From IMG/VR virus record IMGVR_UViG_3300022924_000016, positions 64,001 to 128,000 of that record: a DNA stretch of 64,000 nucleotides; one strand, 5' to 3'. Below, piece by piece: positions 45,934 through 61,327 of the stretch. The notes beneath the pieces were generated by a model that saw only the letters and a list, made by a program, of their open reading frames with translations, did not search any database and had not been told where the DNA came from. Position 1 is the first letter of the stretch, and every line of letters starts with the position of its first letter. Origin of the DNA: a virus. Made by a program: the position numbers and the translations under genes.

Positions 45934-47937
45934 ATGAATTTAGATAGTGCAATAGTCTGTGACATAGAATCGGTGGGATTTCTTGATAGTTTAAAGAGCT
46001 TTGAAGATTTACACGTATTCTCTTGCTGTTTTAAATCTGAGGGCACTTGGAAAATAAAGAGCACAAAATCTAAAGAAGACATACAAAAAGTTGTAGGTAA
46101 TAAGAATAATACACTGATATTTCATAACGGAATTTCATATGATAAGCCAGCACTTGAAATTATGGGTTTAGATTTTAAGGCTGAAATAATTGACACATTA
46201 CCACTAAGCTACTATTTATATAGTGAAAGAGATAAGCACGGATTAGCCCAATGGGGAGAATTTTTCGGCGTGAAAAAGCCCGAAATAGAGTCGTGGACTG
46301 GTCTATCGTATGACGAATATCGAGTAAGATGTGAAGAGGATTGTAAGATAAATACAAACCTATGGATTATGATTTTAGATTATATGAGAGTGCTGTACGA
46401 CAATGATGACGAGCTCATAATCAAAACAATAAGGTATTTGAATCATAAGGCTAATATGCTTTATATTCAAGACCAAAATCCCATATTAATAGATGTAGAG
46501 CAGTGCAAGAAGAATTTACAATACTTAGAAGGGATAATTTCGGAGAAAGAATTGGAATTAAATGCCATAATGCCTAAAATCCCTATAACTTCTCGAAGAA
46601 GTAAGCCCAAGGTAATGTACAAAAAGACAGGCGACTTATCAGAGGCGGGGATAAAGTGGCAAGAACTGCTTAAAAACTGCAACTTAGAAGAAGATTATGA
46701 AGGACAGATAGATGTGGTTACAGGTTATACGGAGCCTAATTGCCAAAGTTCTGCACAAATGAAAAAATTTCTTATGCAGGAAGGTTGGGTTCCCACAATA
46801 TTTAAAGATGGGGCAAATGGTAAAGTTCCTCAGCTAAGGGACGATGAGAAAAATTTATGCCCTAACATACAGAAATTGATAGAAAAAGTTCCAAAACTTC
46901 AATCACTTGATGGACTATCTGTTGCACAACACCGCTCAGGCTATTTAAAGGCTTTCTTAGCTCATATAAATGATAAAGGGTACGCCAAGGCTTGGGCACA
47001 CTCTTTTACCCGCACATTGCGTTTAAAACACAGTAATCCATTTGTAAATCTCCCAAAACCTAAGTCTAAATATGGAAACCTAGTTAGAGCCGTTATGATT
47101 GCCCCTAAAGGGTATGTTTGTATAGGTGCAGATTTATCAAGTATAGAAGATAAGTGCAAGCAGATTTCCATATTTTCTCTAGACAGAGAGTATGTAGAGT
47201 CTATGAACAGTAAGGGTTGGGATGCACACTTAGCTCTGGGGCTAAAAGCAGGAATGTTTACAGAAGAGGAGGTTCAATTTTATAAATGGTTTAACTCTAA
47301 GGATAAAAAAGAAAATGATTACACTTGCCCTAAGAGTTTTTCTCACCTTTCAGAGGAAGAGCAAGAAGTACTTTTTGACGTATTAAGTAAGAAAAGGGCT
47401 ACAAGTAAGACAGGAAATTACGGATTGACTTATGGATGTGGTGTGGCTAAACTTATGGAATCCACGGGATTAAGTAAAAAGGAGTCTGAAAACCTACATA
47501 AAGGATACCACGCCATAAATTGGGCGGTTAAAAAATTCGCCCAGGATAGAGTGGTTAAAACTGTCAAGGGTAGGAACTGGTTAAGGCTTAATAAAAAGGC
47601 AGGGGGGTTGTCAGAAGTAAATGAAACAACTTGGATATGGAACGAGTACTCTAATATGTGGCTATTTTTAAAAAATGATAAGGATAGGTTTTCTAGCTGT
47701 AATCAGAATTTTGGAGTGAAGGTTTTTGATGTTTGGAGTTGGTATTTGATTCAAGGAGGTATCACTCCCTCATATCAAGCGCACGACGAACAGCTCTGGT
47801 ACTGTAAAGAGGAAGAAGTAGGAAAACATATCAAAATTATAGAGGAAAGTATTACAAAGGTTAATGAAATATTTAATCCTCCTATTCCTTTGGAGTGCGA
47901 TTATAAGATAGGAAAGACATACGCGGACGTCCATTAA
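45934..47937 (+). CDS. polA: family A DNA polymerase with 3'-5' exonuclease
   Basis: Exo I CDIES, Exo II HNGISYD, Exo III YRVRCEED; motif A ADLSSIE, B KTGNYGLTYG, C AHDE. Confidence 0.92.
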   Translation: MNLDSAIVCDIESVGFLDSLKSFEDLHVFSCCFKSEGTWKIKSTKSKEDIQKVVGNKNNTLIFHNGISYDKPALEIMGLDFKAEIIDTLPLSYYLYSERDKHGLAQWGEFFGVKKPEIESWTGLSYDEYRVRCEEDCKINTNLWIMILDYMRVLYDNDDELIIKTIRYLNHKANMLYIQDQNPILIDVEQCKKNLQYLEGIISEKELELNAIMPKIPITSRRSKPKVMYKKTGDLSEAGIKWQELLKNCNLEEDYEGQIDVVTGYTEPNCQSSAQMKKFLMQEGWVPTIFKDGANGKVPQLRDDEKNLCPNIQKLIEKVPKLQSLDGLSVAQHRSGYLKAFLAHINDKGYAKAWAHSFTRTLRLKHSNPFVNLPKPKSKYGNLVRAVMIAPKGYVCIGADLSSIEDKCKQISIFSLDREYVESMNSKGWDAHLALGLKAGMFTEEEVQFYKWFNSKDKKENDYTCPKSFSHLSEEEQEVLFDVLSKKRATSKTGNYGLTYGCGVAKLMESTGLSKKESENLHKGYHAINWAVKKFAQDRVVKTVKGRNWLRLNKKAGGLSEVNETTWIWNEYSNMWLFLKNDKDRFSSCNQNFGVKVFDVWSWYLIQGGITPSYQAHDEQLWYCKEEEVGKHIKIIEESITKVNEIFNPPIPLECDYKIGKTYADVH

Positions 47938-47958: not shown

Positions 47959-47990
47959 TTTGCTTTTCTGAAATACTTTTTGTAAGTTTG
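47959..47990 (+). promoter_or_regulatory. Bacteroidota promoter upstream of LAGLIDADG leader
   Basis: TTTG 47959-47962, 20-nt spacer, TAAGTTTG 47983-47990. Confidence 0.7.
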
Positions 47991-47993
47991 CAA

Positions 47994-48130
47994 TGTTGAA
48001 AATAGAGAGGGCAAGTCTTTATGAGTAGACAAATTAAAAATAATAAGAATAGCAATAAAATATTTCAAAAAGCTTTCATAGATTGTTTTCACTTGCCCTG
48101 AATACAGTCCTTGGGAGCTTTTTGTATTTA
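47994..48130 (+). ncRNA. structured 5' leader with two hairpins and complementary loops (GGGCAAG / CTTGCCC)
   Basis: Hairpin 48002-48022 and ~26-bp hairpin 48066-48124 with U-rich 3' end. Confidence 0.65.
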
Positions 48131-48137
48131 AGATAGT

Positions 48138-49240: not shown

Positions 49241-49309
49241 GTATATTTGTAGAAGAAATGCTGAAAAATCTGTTTTTTAAATCTTTTTCGGCGAAAATTA
49301 AATAAAATG
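49241..49309 (+). repeat. ~70-bp promoter/leader cassette, copy 1
   Basis: TATATTTGTAGAAGAAAT...TTTTTAAATCTTTTTCGGCGAAAATTAAATAAAATG; matches 61258-61327. Confidence 0.75.
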
Positions 49310-58325: not shown

Positions 58326-59915
58326 ATGGGAAAAAAGAGATATTCACAAGAGCAGATAGACTTCGTAGTAAATCTAGTAGGTAATGGAGATACTGTTACA
58401 GGAGCTACTAGAAAAATGTGCGAGCATTTCGAGATAAAATACGATGAAACTGCGGGCAGAAGATTCCGAGATATTTTACAAAAGAAAGGAGTCACAAGCA
58501 ATACAGTAACTGTTGAAGACACTGATGTATTTAAAGAAGCTCAGCAGAAGCAGCATGACTCCACAAAGAAACGGTTTTTAATTTCGTGGGCGCAGTCAGA
58601 AACACCTGTACATAAGAGATTTCTTAAAAATATGGAAGCTTACGCAAATCATATTGATGGAGATATACTTATCTGTGCTGGGCGCTATCGTAACCCATCA
58701 TCCCTGTCTTCAAGTAAGCAATTAAAGAAAAAAGAAAAGGATGTTAAAAATACATGGGATGCTTCGATAATACCTTATCTAGATGCTAACAGGCACAATT
58801 TACACCCTTTGTTGTGTGTCCTTTCTAATTTGAAAACGCAACCTACCAGCTCGATGCCTCTGAATGGTTTGAATGGAATTACAGGATTAGAGTCTTGTAT
58901 AATTGGTCATCCTAGAGTACACATGAAGTCTTTGCCTGTTGTAGAGGGGTATCCACATAAGATTTTGATGACAACGGGAGCAGTAACAGTTGAAAATTAT
59001 ACAGATACAGCAGTGGGTGTTAAGGGAGCTTTCCACCATCAGATAGCTTGTGTTATCGTAGAAATTGATGGTGAGAATTTTCACCTCAGACATATTATAG
59101 CAGATAAAAAAGGCGATTTTCAAGATTTAATGTATTGTGTCACTAATTCTGAAGTCACAGTGTGTAGTAAACCTGTGGAAGCTCTGATATTTGGAGATCT
59201 CCACATAGGGGAAACAAATCCTATTGCGGAAGAGGTTTCTTTTAAAATGGCGGAATTGTTGAAACCTAAAAAAATTATAATTCACGATGCTGTAAATTCT
59301 CACTCTGTAAGTCACCACGAACAGAAAAATCCATTCCAACTATTAGAGAGAGAAGAAAATGGCAGTTGGTCGTTACAGAGGGAATTAGACGAAGCTGTTT
59401 CTTGGTTTAATAAGTATCCTCAGTACCAATTTGTAACTGTCCGTTCGAACCACTGTGAGCATATAGATGGTTGGGTAAAAAATACAGACTGGAGAAAATC
59501 TACAAATAAGAAATTATACTTAAAATTTGCTAACATTTTGGCAGAAGGATTAGCTCCAAAAGGTATAGTGCCGTATGTATTTTCTACTGAATTGAACAAC
59601 GTTTATCCGTTAGGTTTAGATGAGGCATATAATGTAAAAGGTATTGAATTAAGTATCCATTCTCACGTTGGTGTCCATGGTTCGAGATCGAGCCCAACAC
59701 AACTTAAAAATTTACCAGTGCGTACTATAGTCGGCCACAGTCATGTACCAAGTAGAATAGATGGAACAATATCGGTGGGGACTCTGACACATCTAAGAAT
59801 CTCTTATAACTCTGGAGCATCAGGGTGGTTAAACTCTAATGCGGTCATTTACCCTAACGGAAGAGTAGCACAACTTAATATCATTAATGGTAGATTTACA
59901 ACGTTATTAGATTAA
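58326..59915 (+). CDS. calcineurin-like metallophosphoesterase with N-terminal HTH, probably T5 A1-like
   Basis: GDLH, IHD, RSNH, HSH, VGHSH motifs; RFLISWAQSETPVH; 529 aa. Confidence 0.7.
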   Translation: MGKKRYSQEQIDFVVNLVGNGDTVTGATRKMCEHFEIKYDETAGRRFRDILQKKGVTSNTVTVEDTDVFKEAQQKQHDSTKKRFLISWAQSETPVHKRFLKNMEAYANHIDGDILICAGRYRNPSSLSSSKQLKKKEKDVKNTWDASIIPYLDANRHNLHPLLCVLSNLKTQPTSSMPLNGLNGITGLESCIIGHPRVHMKSLPVVEGYPHKILMTTGAVTVENYTDTAVGVKGAFHHQIACVIVEIDGENFHLRHIIADKKGDFQDLMYCVTNSEVTVCSKPVEALIFGDLHIGETNPIAEEVSFKMAELLKPKKIIIHDAVNSHSVSHHEQKNPFQLLEREENGSWSLQRELDEAVSWFNKYPQYQFVTVRSNHCEHIDGWVKNTDWRKSTNKKLYLKFANILAEGLAPKGIVPYVFSTELNNVYPLGLDEAYNVKGIELSIHSHVGVHGSRSSPTQLKNLPVRTIVGHSHVPSRIDGTISVGTLTHLRISYNSGASGWLNSNAVIYPNGRVAQLNIINGRFTTLLD

Positions 59916-59965
59916 TATAAAATTTACACATTTTGTAAACCAATTATAGTTTCGTATTTTTTTTT

Positions 59966-60069
59966 TCAGATTCTTACTGGCATATTTATCTGATATAAAC
60001 GAATTATTTATTGAGAGACTCTTTTCATTAACTGTGCCAGCGGTTTTTGATTGGGGTTTTCTTGTTTTT
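59966..60069 (+). ncRNA. structured 5' leader with two hairpins and complementary loops (CTGGCA / TGCCAG)
   Basis: Hairpin 59966-59993 and hairpin 60013-60063 followed by a T-run. Confidence 0.55.
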
Positions 60070-60080
60070 AAGCCGAAGTA

Positions 60081-61187
60081 ATGGAGCATTCAGAGTTTTT
60101 AAAAAGATTAGAAAAAAATGAACACTTTGTAAGTGGGTATTTTAAAGTTATAAGTAAATATCAATGTGATAAATGTAAAGTACTGGTTGAAACACCTTAT
60201 GGGGTTTGTGCATGTGATCCTAGAAATTTATATGAGCATAATACAAGACCCACAATTATGACAGCGGTTGATAAAAATAGTTACTATTCAAATTATATTA
60301 AAGAACACAATGAAAACTATAAAAATAATAACTTTGAAATTGTTTCAGACTTCATAGGTTTTAATAAGGAGATATTTGTTAAAACAGAATATGGAGTTCA
60401 TAAAACAACTGCCAATAGCTTAAAACGAGGAGAGATGCCTGGAATAAACAGTGCTGTTAATAAGGTAGATTATGTTCATAACCAATTAATTGAAACAAAC
60501 GAATATTACAGAAAAGGACTATTTAAAGTAATAAGTTATAAAAGAGGAAAAGTCACTTTAGAAGACAGTTTTGGGTTGTGTACTATGTTATTAAATGATT
60601 TGGTTAACAACTGTCAACCCACTATTTTAAGTGCTGTGGACAAGACAGATTATATTAAAAATAAATTTAAGGATTTAATACACTATGGTAATTATGACTA
60701 TTCTAAATTTGTATATGATTGTGCTAGATGTAAATCTATAATAATCTGTAGAGAACATGGTGAATTTTATCAAACCCCCTCAAAACATTTAGGTAACCAA
60801 GGGTGTCCTAAATGTGGTAGTATAAGAACTGGAAAATATATGCTTGAAAACCCAAATGGTTGGAATTATACGAATTGGCAAAATGCAGGAGATAGAAGTG
60901 ATAATTTTGACTCATTTAAAGTATACATAATCAGGTGTTGGAATGAGCAGGAGGAGTTTTATAAGATAGGAAAGACTTTTGTAACTGTAGAAAGTAGATT
61001 TAGGTTAAAACTATTGATGCCGTATAATTATGAAATTATTGAACAGTTTATTTTTAATAGCTCAAAAGAAGCATCCAGGTATGAGTTACACTTACAAAAA
61101 TTGAATAAAAAGTCTACCTATAAACCTTTTATTTTATTTAATGGGTCAAATGAATGCTTTAATAAATATTCTTTAACAGTCCTATAG
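60081..61187 (+). CDS. putative homing endonuclease: three tandem repeats, CxxH/CxxC zinc ribbon, GIY-YIG-like C-terminus
   Basis: PTIMTAVDK / PGINSAVNK / PTILSAVDK repeats; ICREHG...GCPKC; VYIIRC...YKIGKT. Confidence 0.7.
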   Translation: MEHSEFLKRLEKNEHFVSGYFKVISKYQCDKCKVLVETPYGVCACDPRNLYEHNTRPTIMTAVDKNSYYSNYIKEHNENYKNNNFEIVSDFIGFNKEIFVKTEYGVHKTTANSLKRGEMPGINSAVNKVDYVHNQLIETNEYYRKGLFKVISYKRGKVTLEDSFGLCTMLLNDLVNNCQPTILSAVDKTDYIKNKFKDLIHYGNYDYSKFVYDCARCKSIIICREHGEFYQTPSKHLGNQGCPKCGSIRTGKYMLENPNGWNYTNWQNAGDRSDNFDSFKVYIIRCWNEQEEFYKIGKTFVTVESRFRLKLLMPYNYEIIEQFIFNSSKEASRYELHLQKLNKKSTYKPFILFNGSNECFNKYSLTVL

Positions 61188-61257: not shown

Positions 61258-61327
61258 ATATCTTTGTAGAAGAAATCAGGAAAATGATTATTTTTAAGTC
61301 TTTTTCCGCCGAAAATTAAATAAAATG
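61258..61327 (+). repeat. ~70-bp promoter/leader cassette, copy 2
   Basis: TATCTTTGTAGAAGAAAT...TTTTTAAGTCTTTTTCCGCCGAAAATTAAATAAAATG; -33 TTTG at 61237-61240. Confidence 0.75.

What the first reader, a model, noticed from the sequence alone, without database searches (positions are those of the whole stretch)
59932..60080. Second, sequence-unrelated kissing-loop leader before the GIY-YIG-like endonuclease
Seen: hairpin 1 (TCAGAT 59966-59971 / ATCTGA 59988-59993, inner TA/TA pairs) displays CTGGCA at 59977-59982. Hairpin 2 (AACTG/CGGTT upper stem, extending 60013-60063, then GTTTTT) displays TGCCAG at 60035-60040, the perfect complement. Topology and spacing to the ATG match the 48.0-kb element despite no primary similarity, so each nuclease may have its own loop code. 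The matching promoter looks degenerate: TTTG 59932-59935, 19-nt spacer, then TATTTTTT instead of TAnnTTTG inside a T10 run.
Basis: partly seen in the sequence, partly recalled or inferred. Interest (0 to 1): 0.75.

Follow-up and report, generated by a model that had tools for sequence, protein, structure and literature searches.

The report
Kissing-loop leader RNA of endonuclease cassette
Between the promoter and the start of a mobile endonuclease gene of a Bacteroidota phage lies a folded RNA leader of about 105 bases in which the tip of a small first hairpin can base-pair with the tip of a transcription-stop-like hairpin; related phages keep this pairing with different letters, so it is a real, uncatalogued control element whose function has not been tested.

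Summary
A 6-base loop match alone is close to chance in this AT-rich genome. The match becomes convincing only in context.

- **Where it occurs.** I examined 15 loci encoding homologues of this endonuclease (35-94% identity). Thirteen have the same order: promoter, hairpin P1, long hairpin P2 with a U-rich tail, then the ATG 13-24 nt later.
- **Covariation.** The P1 loop and the P2 apical loop are complementary in every one, using seven different sequences. Compensatory changes also occur in the P2 stems.
- **Statistics.** Shuffle tests on 11 independent loop codes, including three other leaders of this phage, give a Fisher p of about 5e-14.
- **Mobility.** Leader and gene are 93-98% identical to a sister phage, while the flanking gene is 68-80% identical. 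The leader therefore belongs to a recently exchanged cassette.
- **Databases.** Rfam has no match.

Most likely function (inferred, not shown): P2 is a leaky terminator that limits and insulates nuclease expression, and the loop-loop contact locks the leader fold.

The loop code is not specific to nucleases. A primase-like gene carries such a leader, and orthologous nucleases carry different codes.

This scan had already noted the same design: copy 1 of this genome and several other phages.

The parts
59932..59935 (+). -33 element (TTTG) of a Bacteroidota-type sigma-A promoter
   Evidence: Read. There are 19 nt to the -7 box. The same element is present in the sister phage.
59955..59962 (+). 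Degenerate -7 box. The sister phage has a canonical TAnnTTTG here; this copy lacks the final G.
   Evidence: Alignments. The box lies at -12 to -5 according to PMC9723704.
59957..59966 (+). T10 run, which is T5-G-T5 in the sister phage
   Evidence: It is identical in the independent assembly L166.
59966..59993 (+). Hairpin P1: a 6-bp stem (59966-71/59988-93) with a 16-nt loop. It starts at or next to the predicted transcription start.
   Evidence: Pair probabilities are 0.81-0.98 in the terminated form.
59977..59982 (+). K, the six P1-loop bases complementary to the P2 apical loop
   Evidence: Unpaired probability is at least 0.93. The predicted duplex with K' is -8.4 kcal/mol.
59994..60014 (+). 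A/U-rich linker between P1 and P2
   Evidence: Unpaired in the minimum-energy structures.
60015..60060 (+). Hairpin P2, made of three helical segments separated by 2x2 internal loops. Four G-U pairs in the lower stem make the structure specific to the + strand.
   Evidence: z = -4.0, 0 of 200 shuffles fold as well; all three substitutions against the sister phage turn G-U into A-U; compensatory changes in relatives.
60035..60040 (+). K', the P2 apical loop and perfect complement of K
60057..60069 (+). U-rich tract directly after the G/C-rich base of P2, giving a terminator-like tail
   Evidence: In most of the 11 leaders solved by the pipeline, the 10 nt after the base of P2 contain 6-8 T.
60081..61187 (+). 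368-aa endonuclease gene (phrog_681; DUF723 family; GIY-YIG-like/T5orf172-like C-terminal part)
   Evidence: The paralogue L004 reaches the Pfam T5orf172 cut-off.
59950..61150 (+). Block that is 93-98% identical to the sister phage, while the gene to its left is 68-80% identical: the recently exchanged cassette (-7 box, leader, gene)
   Evidence: Identity profile.
47959..48137 (+). Copy 1 of the same leader design, in front of the LAGLIDADG gene, with its own 9-bp loop code (48008-16/48091-99)

Best explanation
This is the RNA leader of a self-contained, mobile homing-endonuclease cassette.

A Bacteroidota sigma-A promoter starts transcription at or next to the first base of a small hairpin, P1. 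After a 21-nt A/U-rich linker comes a long, three-segment hairpin, P2. Its G/C-rich base is followed by a U-rich tract, and the ATG lies 20 nt beyond the last pair of P2.

Six bases in the P1 loop pair with the six-base apical loop of P2. This closes the leader into a compact pseudoknotted fold (a kissing complex).

**Supported by sequence, folding and comparison (not probed):** the two hairpins, the loop-loop complementarity and its covariation, and the co-transfer of leader and gene.

**Inferred:**
- P2 acts as a leaky intrinsic terminator. Most transcripts, whether from the cassette promoter or from the gene upstream, would end as an RNA of about 105 nt, and only read-through would reach the nuclease ORF. 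Expression would stay low and independent of the insertion site.
- The kissing contact stabilises the weak P1 and holds the terminator-competent, nuclease-resistant fold.

In this particular phage the promoter has lost the G of its -7 box, so the copy may be transcribed weakly.
For: 1. **Anatomy.** All features are at the stated coordinates. Both hairpins appear in the minimum-energy structure and the loops are free. P2 has z = -4.0.
2. **Strand.** The + strand folds at -22.6 kcal/mol and the - strand at -12.3. G-U pairs lie in the stems.
3. **Relatives.** Thirteen of 15 homologous endonuclease loci, from at least 10 different contigs and insertion sites, have promoter, P1, P2, U tract and ATG in this order.
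4. **Loop pairing varies but is kept.** Among the endonuclease-gene leaders the pairing uses seven different sequences. L030 versus L031 shows one double substitution and two wobble-compatible changes. L041 versus L045 swap two adjacent pairs.
5. **P2 stems covary.** The upper stem changes A-U to G-C and G-C to A-U. The lower stem changes C-G to U-A.
6. **Statistics.**
   - In a blind ranking of 47 promoter-plus-hairpin units in three phage records, the six leader units came first and the controls were uniform.
   - Eleven independent codes give a Fisher p of 5e-14.
   - The four leaders of this genome are among the top 5 of 137 pre-ATG hairpins.
7. **U-rich tail.** Most of the 11 leaders solved by the pipeline have 6-8 T in the 10 nt after the base of P2. 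The order promoter, hairpin, ATG is the reverse of the ordinary terminator, promoter, ATG order seen at L003, which lacks the leader.
8. **Mobility.** Leader and gene are 93-98% identical to the sister phage, while the flanking gene is 68-80% identical.
9. **Precedent.** Terminators and hairpins that throttle free-standing homing endonuclease genes are known in T4-like phages (PMC2988022).
Against: - There are no transcript or probing data, so termination, read-through and the kissing contact are all inferred.
- The simple terminator scan does not call P2. P2 is much longer and more elaborate than the plain terminators of this phage, which hints at a further role.
- P1 alone is marginal (-3.5 kcal/mol), and the whole intergenic region has z = -0.95.
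- A six-base match alone is near chance.
- This copy's promoter is degenerate.
- Two homologous genes lack the leader (L003, L044).
- In relatives with short linkers, a kissing contact within one molecule needs a bend in P2. I could not model this.
Confidence: 0.6

Rival explanations
1. Post-transcriptional element rather than a terminator. P1 would be a 5'-terminal protective stem-loop. P2 would be a roadblock or an RNase III-type processing site just upstream of the start codon. Together they would set mRNA half-life or translation of the nuclease, with the kissing contact compacting the 5' UTR.
For: - P1 begins at the predicted +1 in several copies.
- P2 has 16-27 pairs in two or three segments with internal loops, unlike the simple terminators of this phage.
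- The ATG always lies 13-24 nt after the G/C-rich base of P2.
- A stable hairpin just upstream of a homing endonuclease start that does not sequester the ribosome-binding site is described for phage 25 (PMC2988022).
Against: - The U-rich tract after a G/C-rich stem base is conserved although its exact sequence is not. This points to termination.
- The start codon is not inside P2.
Confidence: 0.2
2. The terminated leader is a discrete small RNA that works between molecules. This would give each cassette a private, address-coded feedback or a way to tell co-infecting phages apart.
For: - Both ends of the predicted RNA of about 105 nt are closed by hairpins.
- The four codes in one genome are orthogonal.
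- Orthologous leaders can differ in the whole code while the P2 stems stay similar.
- Short linkers in some relatives make a contact within one molecule geometrically demanding.
Against: - The partner loop on the same molecule is always nearer.
- No target outside the leader is known.
- No abundance data exist.
- Ordinary drift with compensation also produces differing codes.
Confidence: 0.1
3. Two-state switch. The K:K' pairing would form a nested long-range helix that excludes P2 and so acts as an antiterminator, rather than coexisting with it.
For: RNAfold, which cannot draw pseudoknots, prefers the nested K:K' helix over P2 for L041 and L045.
Against: - K and K' always lie in loops and never share bases with the P1 or P2 stems. 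Nothing therefore forces the structures to be exclusive.
- P1, P2 and K:K' all covary.
- No ligand-binding core is present and there is no Rfam match.
Confidence: 0.06
4. Chance complementarity between two unrelated hairpins, for example the upstream gene's terminator and a random AT-rich stem.
For: Loose searches find such 6-mers about once per 30 nt in real and in shuffled sequence. The whole-region z-score is -0.95.
Against: - The complementarity is kept with seven different sequences in 13 homologous loci, and with four more in other leaders.
- The combined p is 5e-14, and control hairpins behave as expected by chance.
Confidence: 0.03

Closest known systems
RNA controls of free-standing homing endonuclease genes in T4-like phages: the intrinsic terminators at the 5' end of mobE and segF, the hairpins that sequester the ribosome-binding site of I-TevI, segB and Aeh1 mobE, and the hairpin upstream of seg43(25) (PMC2988022)
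   Same: In both cases a mobile nuclease gene is held down by RNA structure at its 5' end. A partial terminator (about 30% termination for mobE) limits transcripts entering the gene. The neighbouring genes have their own promoters.
   Different: Here the terminator-like hairpin lies between the cassette's own promoter and the ATG, not inside the coding region. The start site is not sequestered. A second hairpin makes a covarying loop-loop contact with the terminator loop, which is not described for the T4 cases. The host transcription and translation signals are Bacteroidota-type (no Shine-Dalgarno sequence).
Promoter-proximal terminator units of lambdoid phages (PR' - 6S RNA - tR', read through with Q); comparison from general knowledge
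   Same: Both have a promoter followed within about 100-200 nt by an intrinsic terminator, so a short RNA is made unless the polymerase reads through.
   Different: No Q-like factor or loading site has been identified here. There are several units per genome, each in front of a single accessory gene. The kissing loops have no counterpart.
Antisense kissing complexes of plasmids (ColE1 RNA I/RNA II, R1 CopA/CopT) and antisense-driven attenuation (pT181, pIP501); comparison from general knowledge
   Same: Both use 6-8-nt loop-loop helices between hairpins, and the loop sequence acts as a specificity code that differs between related elements. In the attenuation systems the contact decides whether a terminator is used.
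   Different: There the two loops sit on two RNAs made from opposite strands, so complementarity is automatic. Here both loops are on the same strand of the same leader, about 50 nt apart, so complementarity has to be maintained by paired mutations.
   Same: Both have two loops of one RNA with complementary bases that covary between relatives, while the primary sequence drifts.
   Different: pRNA is a single gene at a genome end, pairs between molecules to form a ring on the portal, and is not a leader of an ORF. Neither Rfam nor the sequence relates the two.
Insulator terminator at the end of the conjugative element Tn916 (PMC11658703; abstract seen)
   Same: Both are mobile elements that carry a terminator near their edge, so that outside transcription does not drive their genes.
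   Different: Tn916 is a different type of element, and its abstract mentions no loop-loop contact. The paper title pairs the terminator with antitermination; nothing comparable was looked for here.

Membership tests
Kissing-loop terminator leader RNA of phages (uncatalogued; so far named only in notes of this scan) | Lies between a promoter and the start codon of the gene it precedes | tested here: met
   The -33 and -7 elements are at 59932-59962 and the ATG at 60081. The sister phage has a canonical box.
Kissing-loop terminator leader RNA of phages (uncatalogued; so far named only in notes of this scan) | A 5' hairpin whose loop is complementary to the apical loop of a downstream long hairpin | tested here: met
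   59977-82 against 60035-40, 6 bp, with both loops free in the ensemble.
Kissing-loop terminator leader RNA of phages (uncatalogued; so far named only in notes of this scan) | The second hairpin ends in a U-rich tract shortly before the ATG | tested here: met
   The U-rich tract is at 60057-60069, and relatives have 6-8 T in 10 nt.
Kissing-loop terminator leader RNA of phages (uncatalogued; so far named only in notes of this scan) | Loop-loop complementarity is kept by different sequences in relatives | tested here: met
   There are seven codes among 13 homologous loci and eleven codes overall, with Fisher p = 5e-14.
Intrinsic (Rho-independent) terminator | G/C-rich stem base directly followed by a U tract | tested here: met
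   Pairs 60019-22/60053-56 are followed by the U-rich 60057-69. The simple consensus scan, which needs a 3-8-nt loop, does not call it.
Intrinsic (Rho-independent) terminator | Releases transcripts at the U tract | not testable with these tools
   This needs in vitro transcription or 3'-end mapping.
T4-type translational hairpin of homing endonuclease genes | [quoted passage not shown] | tested here: not met
   P2 ends at 60060, 20 nt before the ATG, and the start codon is not paired with the leader.
Any Rfam family (riboswitches with kissing loops, pRNA, phage small RNAs) | Match to a curated covariance model | tested here: not met
   There was no match at E <= 1 in six loci that hold seven leaders.
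GIY-YIG superfamily / T5orf172-type endonuclease (the gene behind the leader) | Profile match to the family | tested here: inconclusive
   My Pfam scan of the 368-aa protein found nothing at E <= 0.1. It matches phrog_681 'endonuclease' at 1e-23. The precomputed annotation gives DUF723. The 30%-identical paralogue reaches T5orf172 at 21.1 bits against a cut-off of 20.
Free-standing homing endonuclease cassette | Present or absent between related genomes, found at different insertion sites, and more conserved than its flanks | tested here: met
   It is 93-98% identical against flanks at 68-80%. Homologues sit next to five or more different neighbour genes. Cleavage activity was not tested.

The most novel reading that the evidence does not exclude
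The leaders would be portable, address-coded RNA modules. Each cassette would make a short, end-protected RNA whose two loops recognise only its own kind.
Probability: 0.1. Interest if true: 0.85.

Novelty: new variant of a known kind. Interest (0 to 1): 0.62.

Why it matters
- **Biology of mobile nucleases.** It would show that homing-endonuclease cassettes of Bacteroidota phages carry their own RNA control module, and that this module moves with the gene. That extends the known ways in which such selfish genes keep their expression harmless.
- **RNA structure.** The element is a compact, uncatalogued RNA design. A loop-loop contact of 6-9 base pairs to the tip of a terminator-like hairpin is maintained by paired mutations and differs from copy to copy.
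- **Experiments it allows.** It offers a simple natural system for asking what a tertiary contact on a terminator hairpin does to termination or RNA stability.
- **Possible use.** If it works as a dosing device, it would provide a set of orthogonal parts for gene control in Bacteroidota.

Tried and rejected
- **Loose genome-wide scan.** Searching for any two hairpins with complementary 6-8-mer loops found almost as many in shuffled DNA. I dropped it as a test and used restricted tests instead.
- **Pattern scan of viral contigs.** The conserved 3' flank returned only the sister phage and two chance hits.
- **Pattern scan of metagenome contigs.** The P2 3' arm of the commonest relative gave 82 matches in the loci delivered, and none was a leader.
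- **Searches for related loci.** The primase-like protein and the upstream gene gave almost no relatives. The two phages' DNA polymerases are only 23% identical, so they were useless as a marker.
- **MAFFT alignments A4, A5 and A7.** They are out of structural register in the loops. I therefore did not run the count of structure pairs or build a covariance model, and used coordinate-based scripts instead.
- **A possible fifth copy at about window 42.8 kb (p = 0.004).** It lies inside an ORF and shows no structure signal. I rejected it as the expected false positive.
- **DNA-level cruciform.** Rejected because of the G-U pairs and the difference in folding energy between strands.

Full report
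**Setting.** The window is bases 64001-128000 of a 141,323-bp phage record that is estimated to be 96% complete. Genes in this region are preceded by Bacteroidota-type promoters: TTTG, about 19-20 nt, then TAnnTTTG.

The finding lies in the 165-nt gap between two genes.
- Upstream is a 529-aa gene (58326-59915; phrog_1745, 'DNA transfer protein').
- Downstream is a 368-aa gene (60081-61187). It matches phrog_681 'endonuclease' at 1e-23 and belongs to the DUF723 family.
- My Pfam scan of the 368-aa protein found nothing.
- A 30%-identical paralogue in the sister phage reaches the T5orf172 cut-off. 'GIY-YIG-like' is therefore a fair but unproven label.

**The observation.**
- P1 has a 6-bp stem (59966-71/59988-93) and a 16-nt loop, with the six K bases at 59977-82.
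- P2 (60015-60060) has a lower stem of 8 pairs (four of them G-U), a 3-bp middle stem and a 5-bp upper stem, separated by 2x2 internal loops. Its 6-nt apical loop, K' (60035-40), is the perfect complement of K.
- A U-rich tract follows at 60057-69, and the ATG is at 60081.

Folding results:
- RNAfold returns both hairpins.
- In the ensemble the K bases are at least 93% unpaired and the four central K' bases are fully unpaired.
- P2 alone has z = -4.0 (0 of 200 shuffles). P1 alone is weak (-3.5 kcal/mol). The leader folds at -22.6 kcal/mol on the + strand and -12.3 on the - strand.
- The whole intergenic stretch is not remarkable (z = -0.95).

**Is it more than chance?** Taken alone, no. A loose search for two hairpins with complementary 6-8-mer loops finds about 4,900 six-mers per strand in the real genome and about 4,350 in shuffled DNA. 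I therefore asked narrower questions.

1. Among 47 units in three phage records that consist of a Bacteroidota promoter followed by a strong hairpin, I ranked each by a shuffle p-value for a complement of the hairpin's apical loop in the sequence upstream. The six leader units took the first six places (p from 0 to 0.012). The others were spread uniformly.
2. Among 137 hairpins lying just before start codons in this genome, five have p < 0.01. Four of them are this leader and three others of the same design. The fifth lies inside an ORF, shows no structure signal, and is the expected false positive.
3. For eleven independent loop codes the combined Fisher p is 5e-14.

**Relatives of this very leader.** A protein search found homologues of the endonuclease at 35-94% identity. 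I read the DNA in front of 15 of them.

Thirteen have the same order: promoter, P1, P2, U-rich tract, ATG. These are this phage, two genes of the sister phage G001, and L030, L031, L032, L033, L036, L038, L040, L041, L045 and L167. Two do not. At L003 a plain terminator comes first and the promoter lies 4 nt before the ATG. L044 has no intergenic space.

The loop-loop complementarity is present in all thirteen, with seven different sequences.
- Three leaders are clearly homologous in their P2 stems and 3' flank: this one, L030 and L031.
- Between this leader and L030, the upper P2 stem changes an A-U pair to G-C and a G-C pair to A-U. The loop changes from six to seven bases, and the P1 loop changes to match.
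- Between L030 and L031, one loop pair changes on both sides and two change to wobble pairs. The lower stem changes C-G to U-A.
- L041 and L045 swap two adjacent loop pairs on both sides.
- Against the near-identical sister copy there are five substitutions in the transcribed leader. Three lie in the P2 lower stem and each turns G-U into A-U. None touches P1, K, K' or the upper stem.

MAFFT alignments were out of register in the loops. These counts therefore come from my own coordinate-based scripts, not from the count of structure pairs.

**Other leaders of the same design.** This genome has four:
- the LAGLIDADG gene at 48.0 kb;
- this one;
- an HNH/endonuclease VII-like gene 3.8 kb past the window;
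- a primase-like gene (BT4734-like N-terminal domain plus PriCT_1) on the minus strand at genome position 40.6 kb.

Their loop codes are orthogonal. Cognate duplexes are -11.6 to -16.1 kcal/mol and non-cognate ones -0.2 to -7.4. The sister phage's copy in front of the primase-like gene keeps similar P2 stems but has a wholly different P1 and loop code. The design is therefore not restricted to nucleases, and the code does not follow the protein.

**The leader is part of a mobile cassette.** Against the sister phage the upstream gene is 68-80% identical per 100 nt. Identity jumps to 93-98% from about 59,950 to about 61,150, then falls again. The homologous genes sit beside at least five different neighbours, including an RNase H-like exonuclease, DnaB, and 420-aa and 361-aa genes. 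Most bring the promoter and leader with them.

**Promoter and 5' end.** The sister phage has T5-G-T5 where this phage has T10. That restores a canonical -7 box. A second assembly of this phage also has T10, so the lost G is probably real. In Flavobacterium the box occupies -12 to -5 (PMC9723704). This puts +1 on the first base of P1 in the sister copy and in L036, L031, L040 and the paralogous leader. The predicted terminated RNA runs from about 59966 to 60070 and would be closed by a hairpin at both ends.

**How it most likely works.**
- *Supported by sequence, folding and comparison:* two hairpins, a covarying loop-loop helix that shares no bases with either stem, a conserved U-rich tail after a G/C-rich stem base, and co-transfer with the gene.
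- *Inferred:* P2 is a leaky intrinsic terminator placed after the cassette promoter. Transcripts from that promoter and from the gene upstream would mostly stop before the ATG, and the nuclease would be made only from read-through. The kissing contact would stabilise the weak P1 and lock a compact fold.
- *Precedent:* T4-like phages throttle free-standing homing endonuclease genes with partial terminators and hairpins (PMC2988022).
- *Points against:* P2 is far more elaborate than the plain terminators of this phage, which leaves room for a role in RNA processing or stability. The simple terminator scan does not call it. In relatives with short linkers, a contact within one molecule would need a bend in P2, so pairing between molecules cannot be excluded.

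**What is known.** Rfam has no match at E <= 1 for any of seven leaders tested. Four full-text searches found no description of such a phage leader.

Notes of this scan describe the same design for copy 1 of this genome and for several other phages. I treated those notes as leads only. I re-tested the claims for copies 1 and 3 of this genome myself.

**Verdict.** The function is inferred. I class it as a new variant of a known kind, namely RNA or terminator control of mobile nuclease genes.

Noticed in passing
window about 61296-61312 and about 49280-49296; many other gene starts in the genome (output): A short G/C-rich core (CCGCG- or CCGCC-like), flanked by a T run and an A run, recurs about 15-25 nt upstream of many start codons. 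It often follows a sigma-A-type promoter. It could be a second promoter class or a binding site for a regulator.
   Followed up: no
window 45934-47937 versus L004:221-2308 (sister phage): The two phages' DNA polymerase genes are only 23% identical in protein. Each is followed directly by a different homing endonuclease gene (LAGLIDADG here, a 491-aa DUF723/T5orf172 type there). Each of those has its own kissing-loop leader, and the two share the start of the promoter region.
   Followed up: partly
L031:2365-2383: The -7 box of this relative reads TAnnTTGY rather than TAnnTTTG. That form is reported as a separate motif (SM5) in Flavobacterium psychrophilum (PMC9723704), so some cassettes may use another sigma factor.
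   Followed up: no
L033:1164-1217 and L040:234-299: Gene callers start these homologues at an in-frame ATG inside the 5' arm of P2, which gives proteins of 387 and 391 aa. The alignment of N-termini puts the real start 18-22 codons later, after the leader.
   Followed up: partly
window 60089-60095: The first codons of the endonuclease ORF repeat most of the 5' arm of P1. In read-through transcripts RNAfold gives P1 only about 47% probability, because its 3' arm can pair there instead. This may be chance.
   Followed up: no
L026:876-2084 (genome position 39.4-40.6 kb, minus strand): A primase-like gene (BT4734-like N-terminal domain plus PriCT_1) carries a leader of the same design. Its P1 and loop code are completely replaced in the sister phage, although the P2 stems stay similar.
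   Followed up: partly
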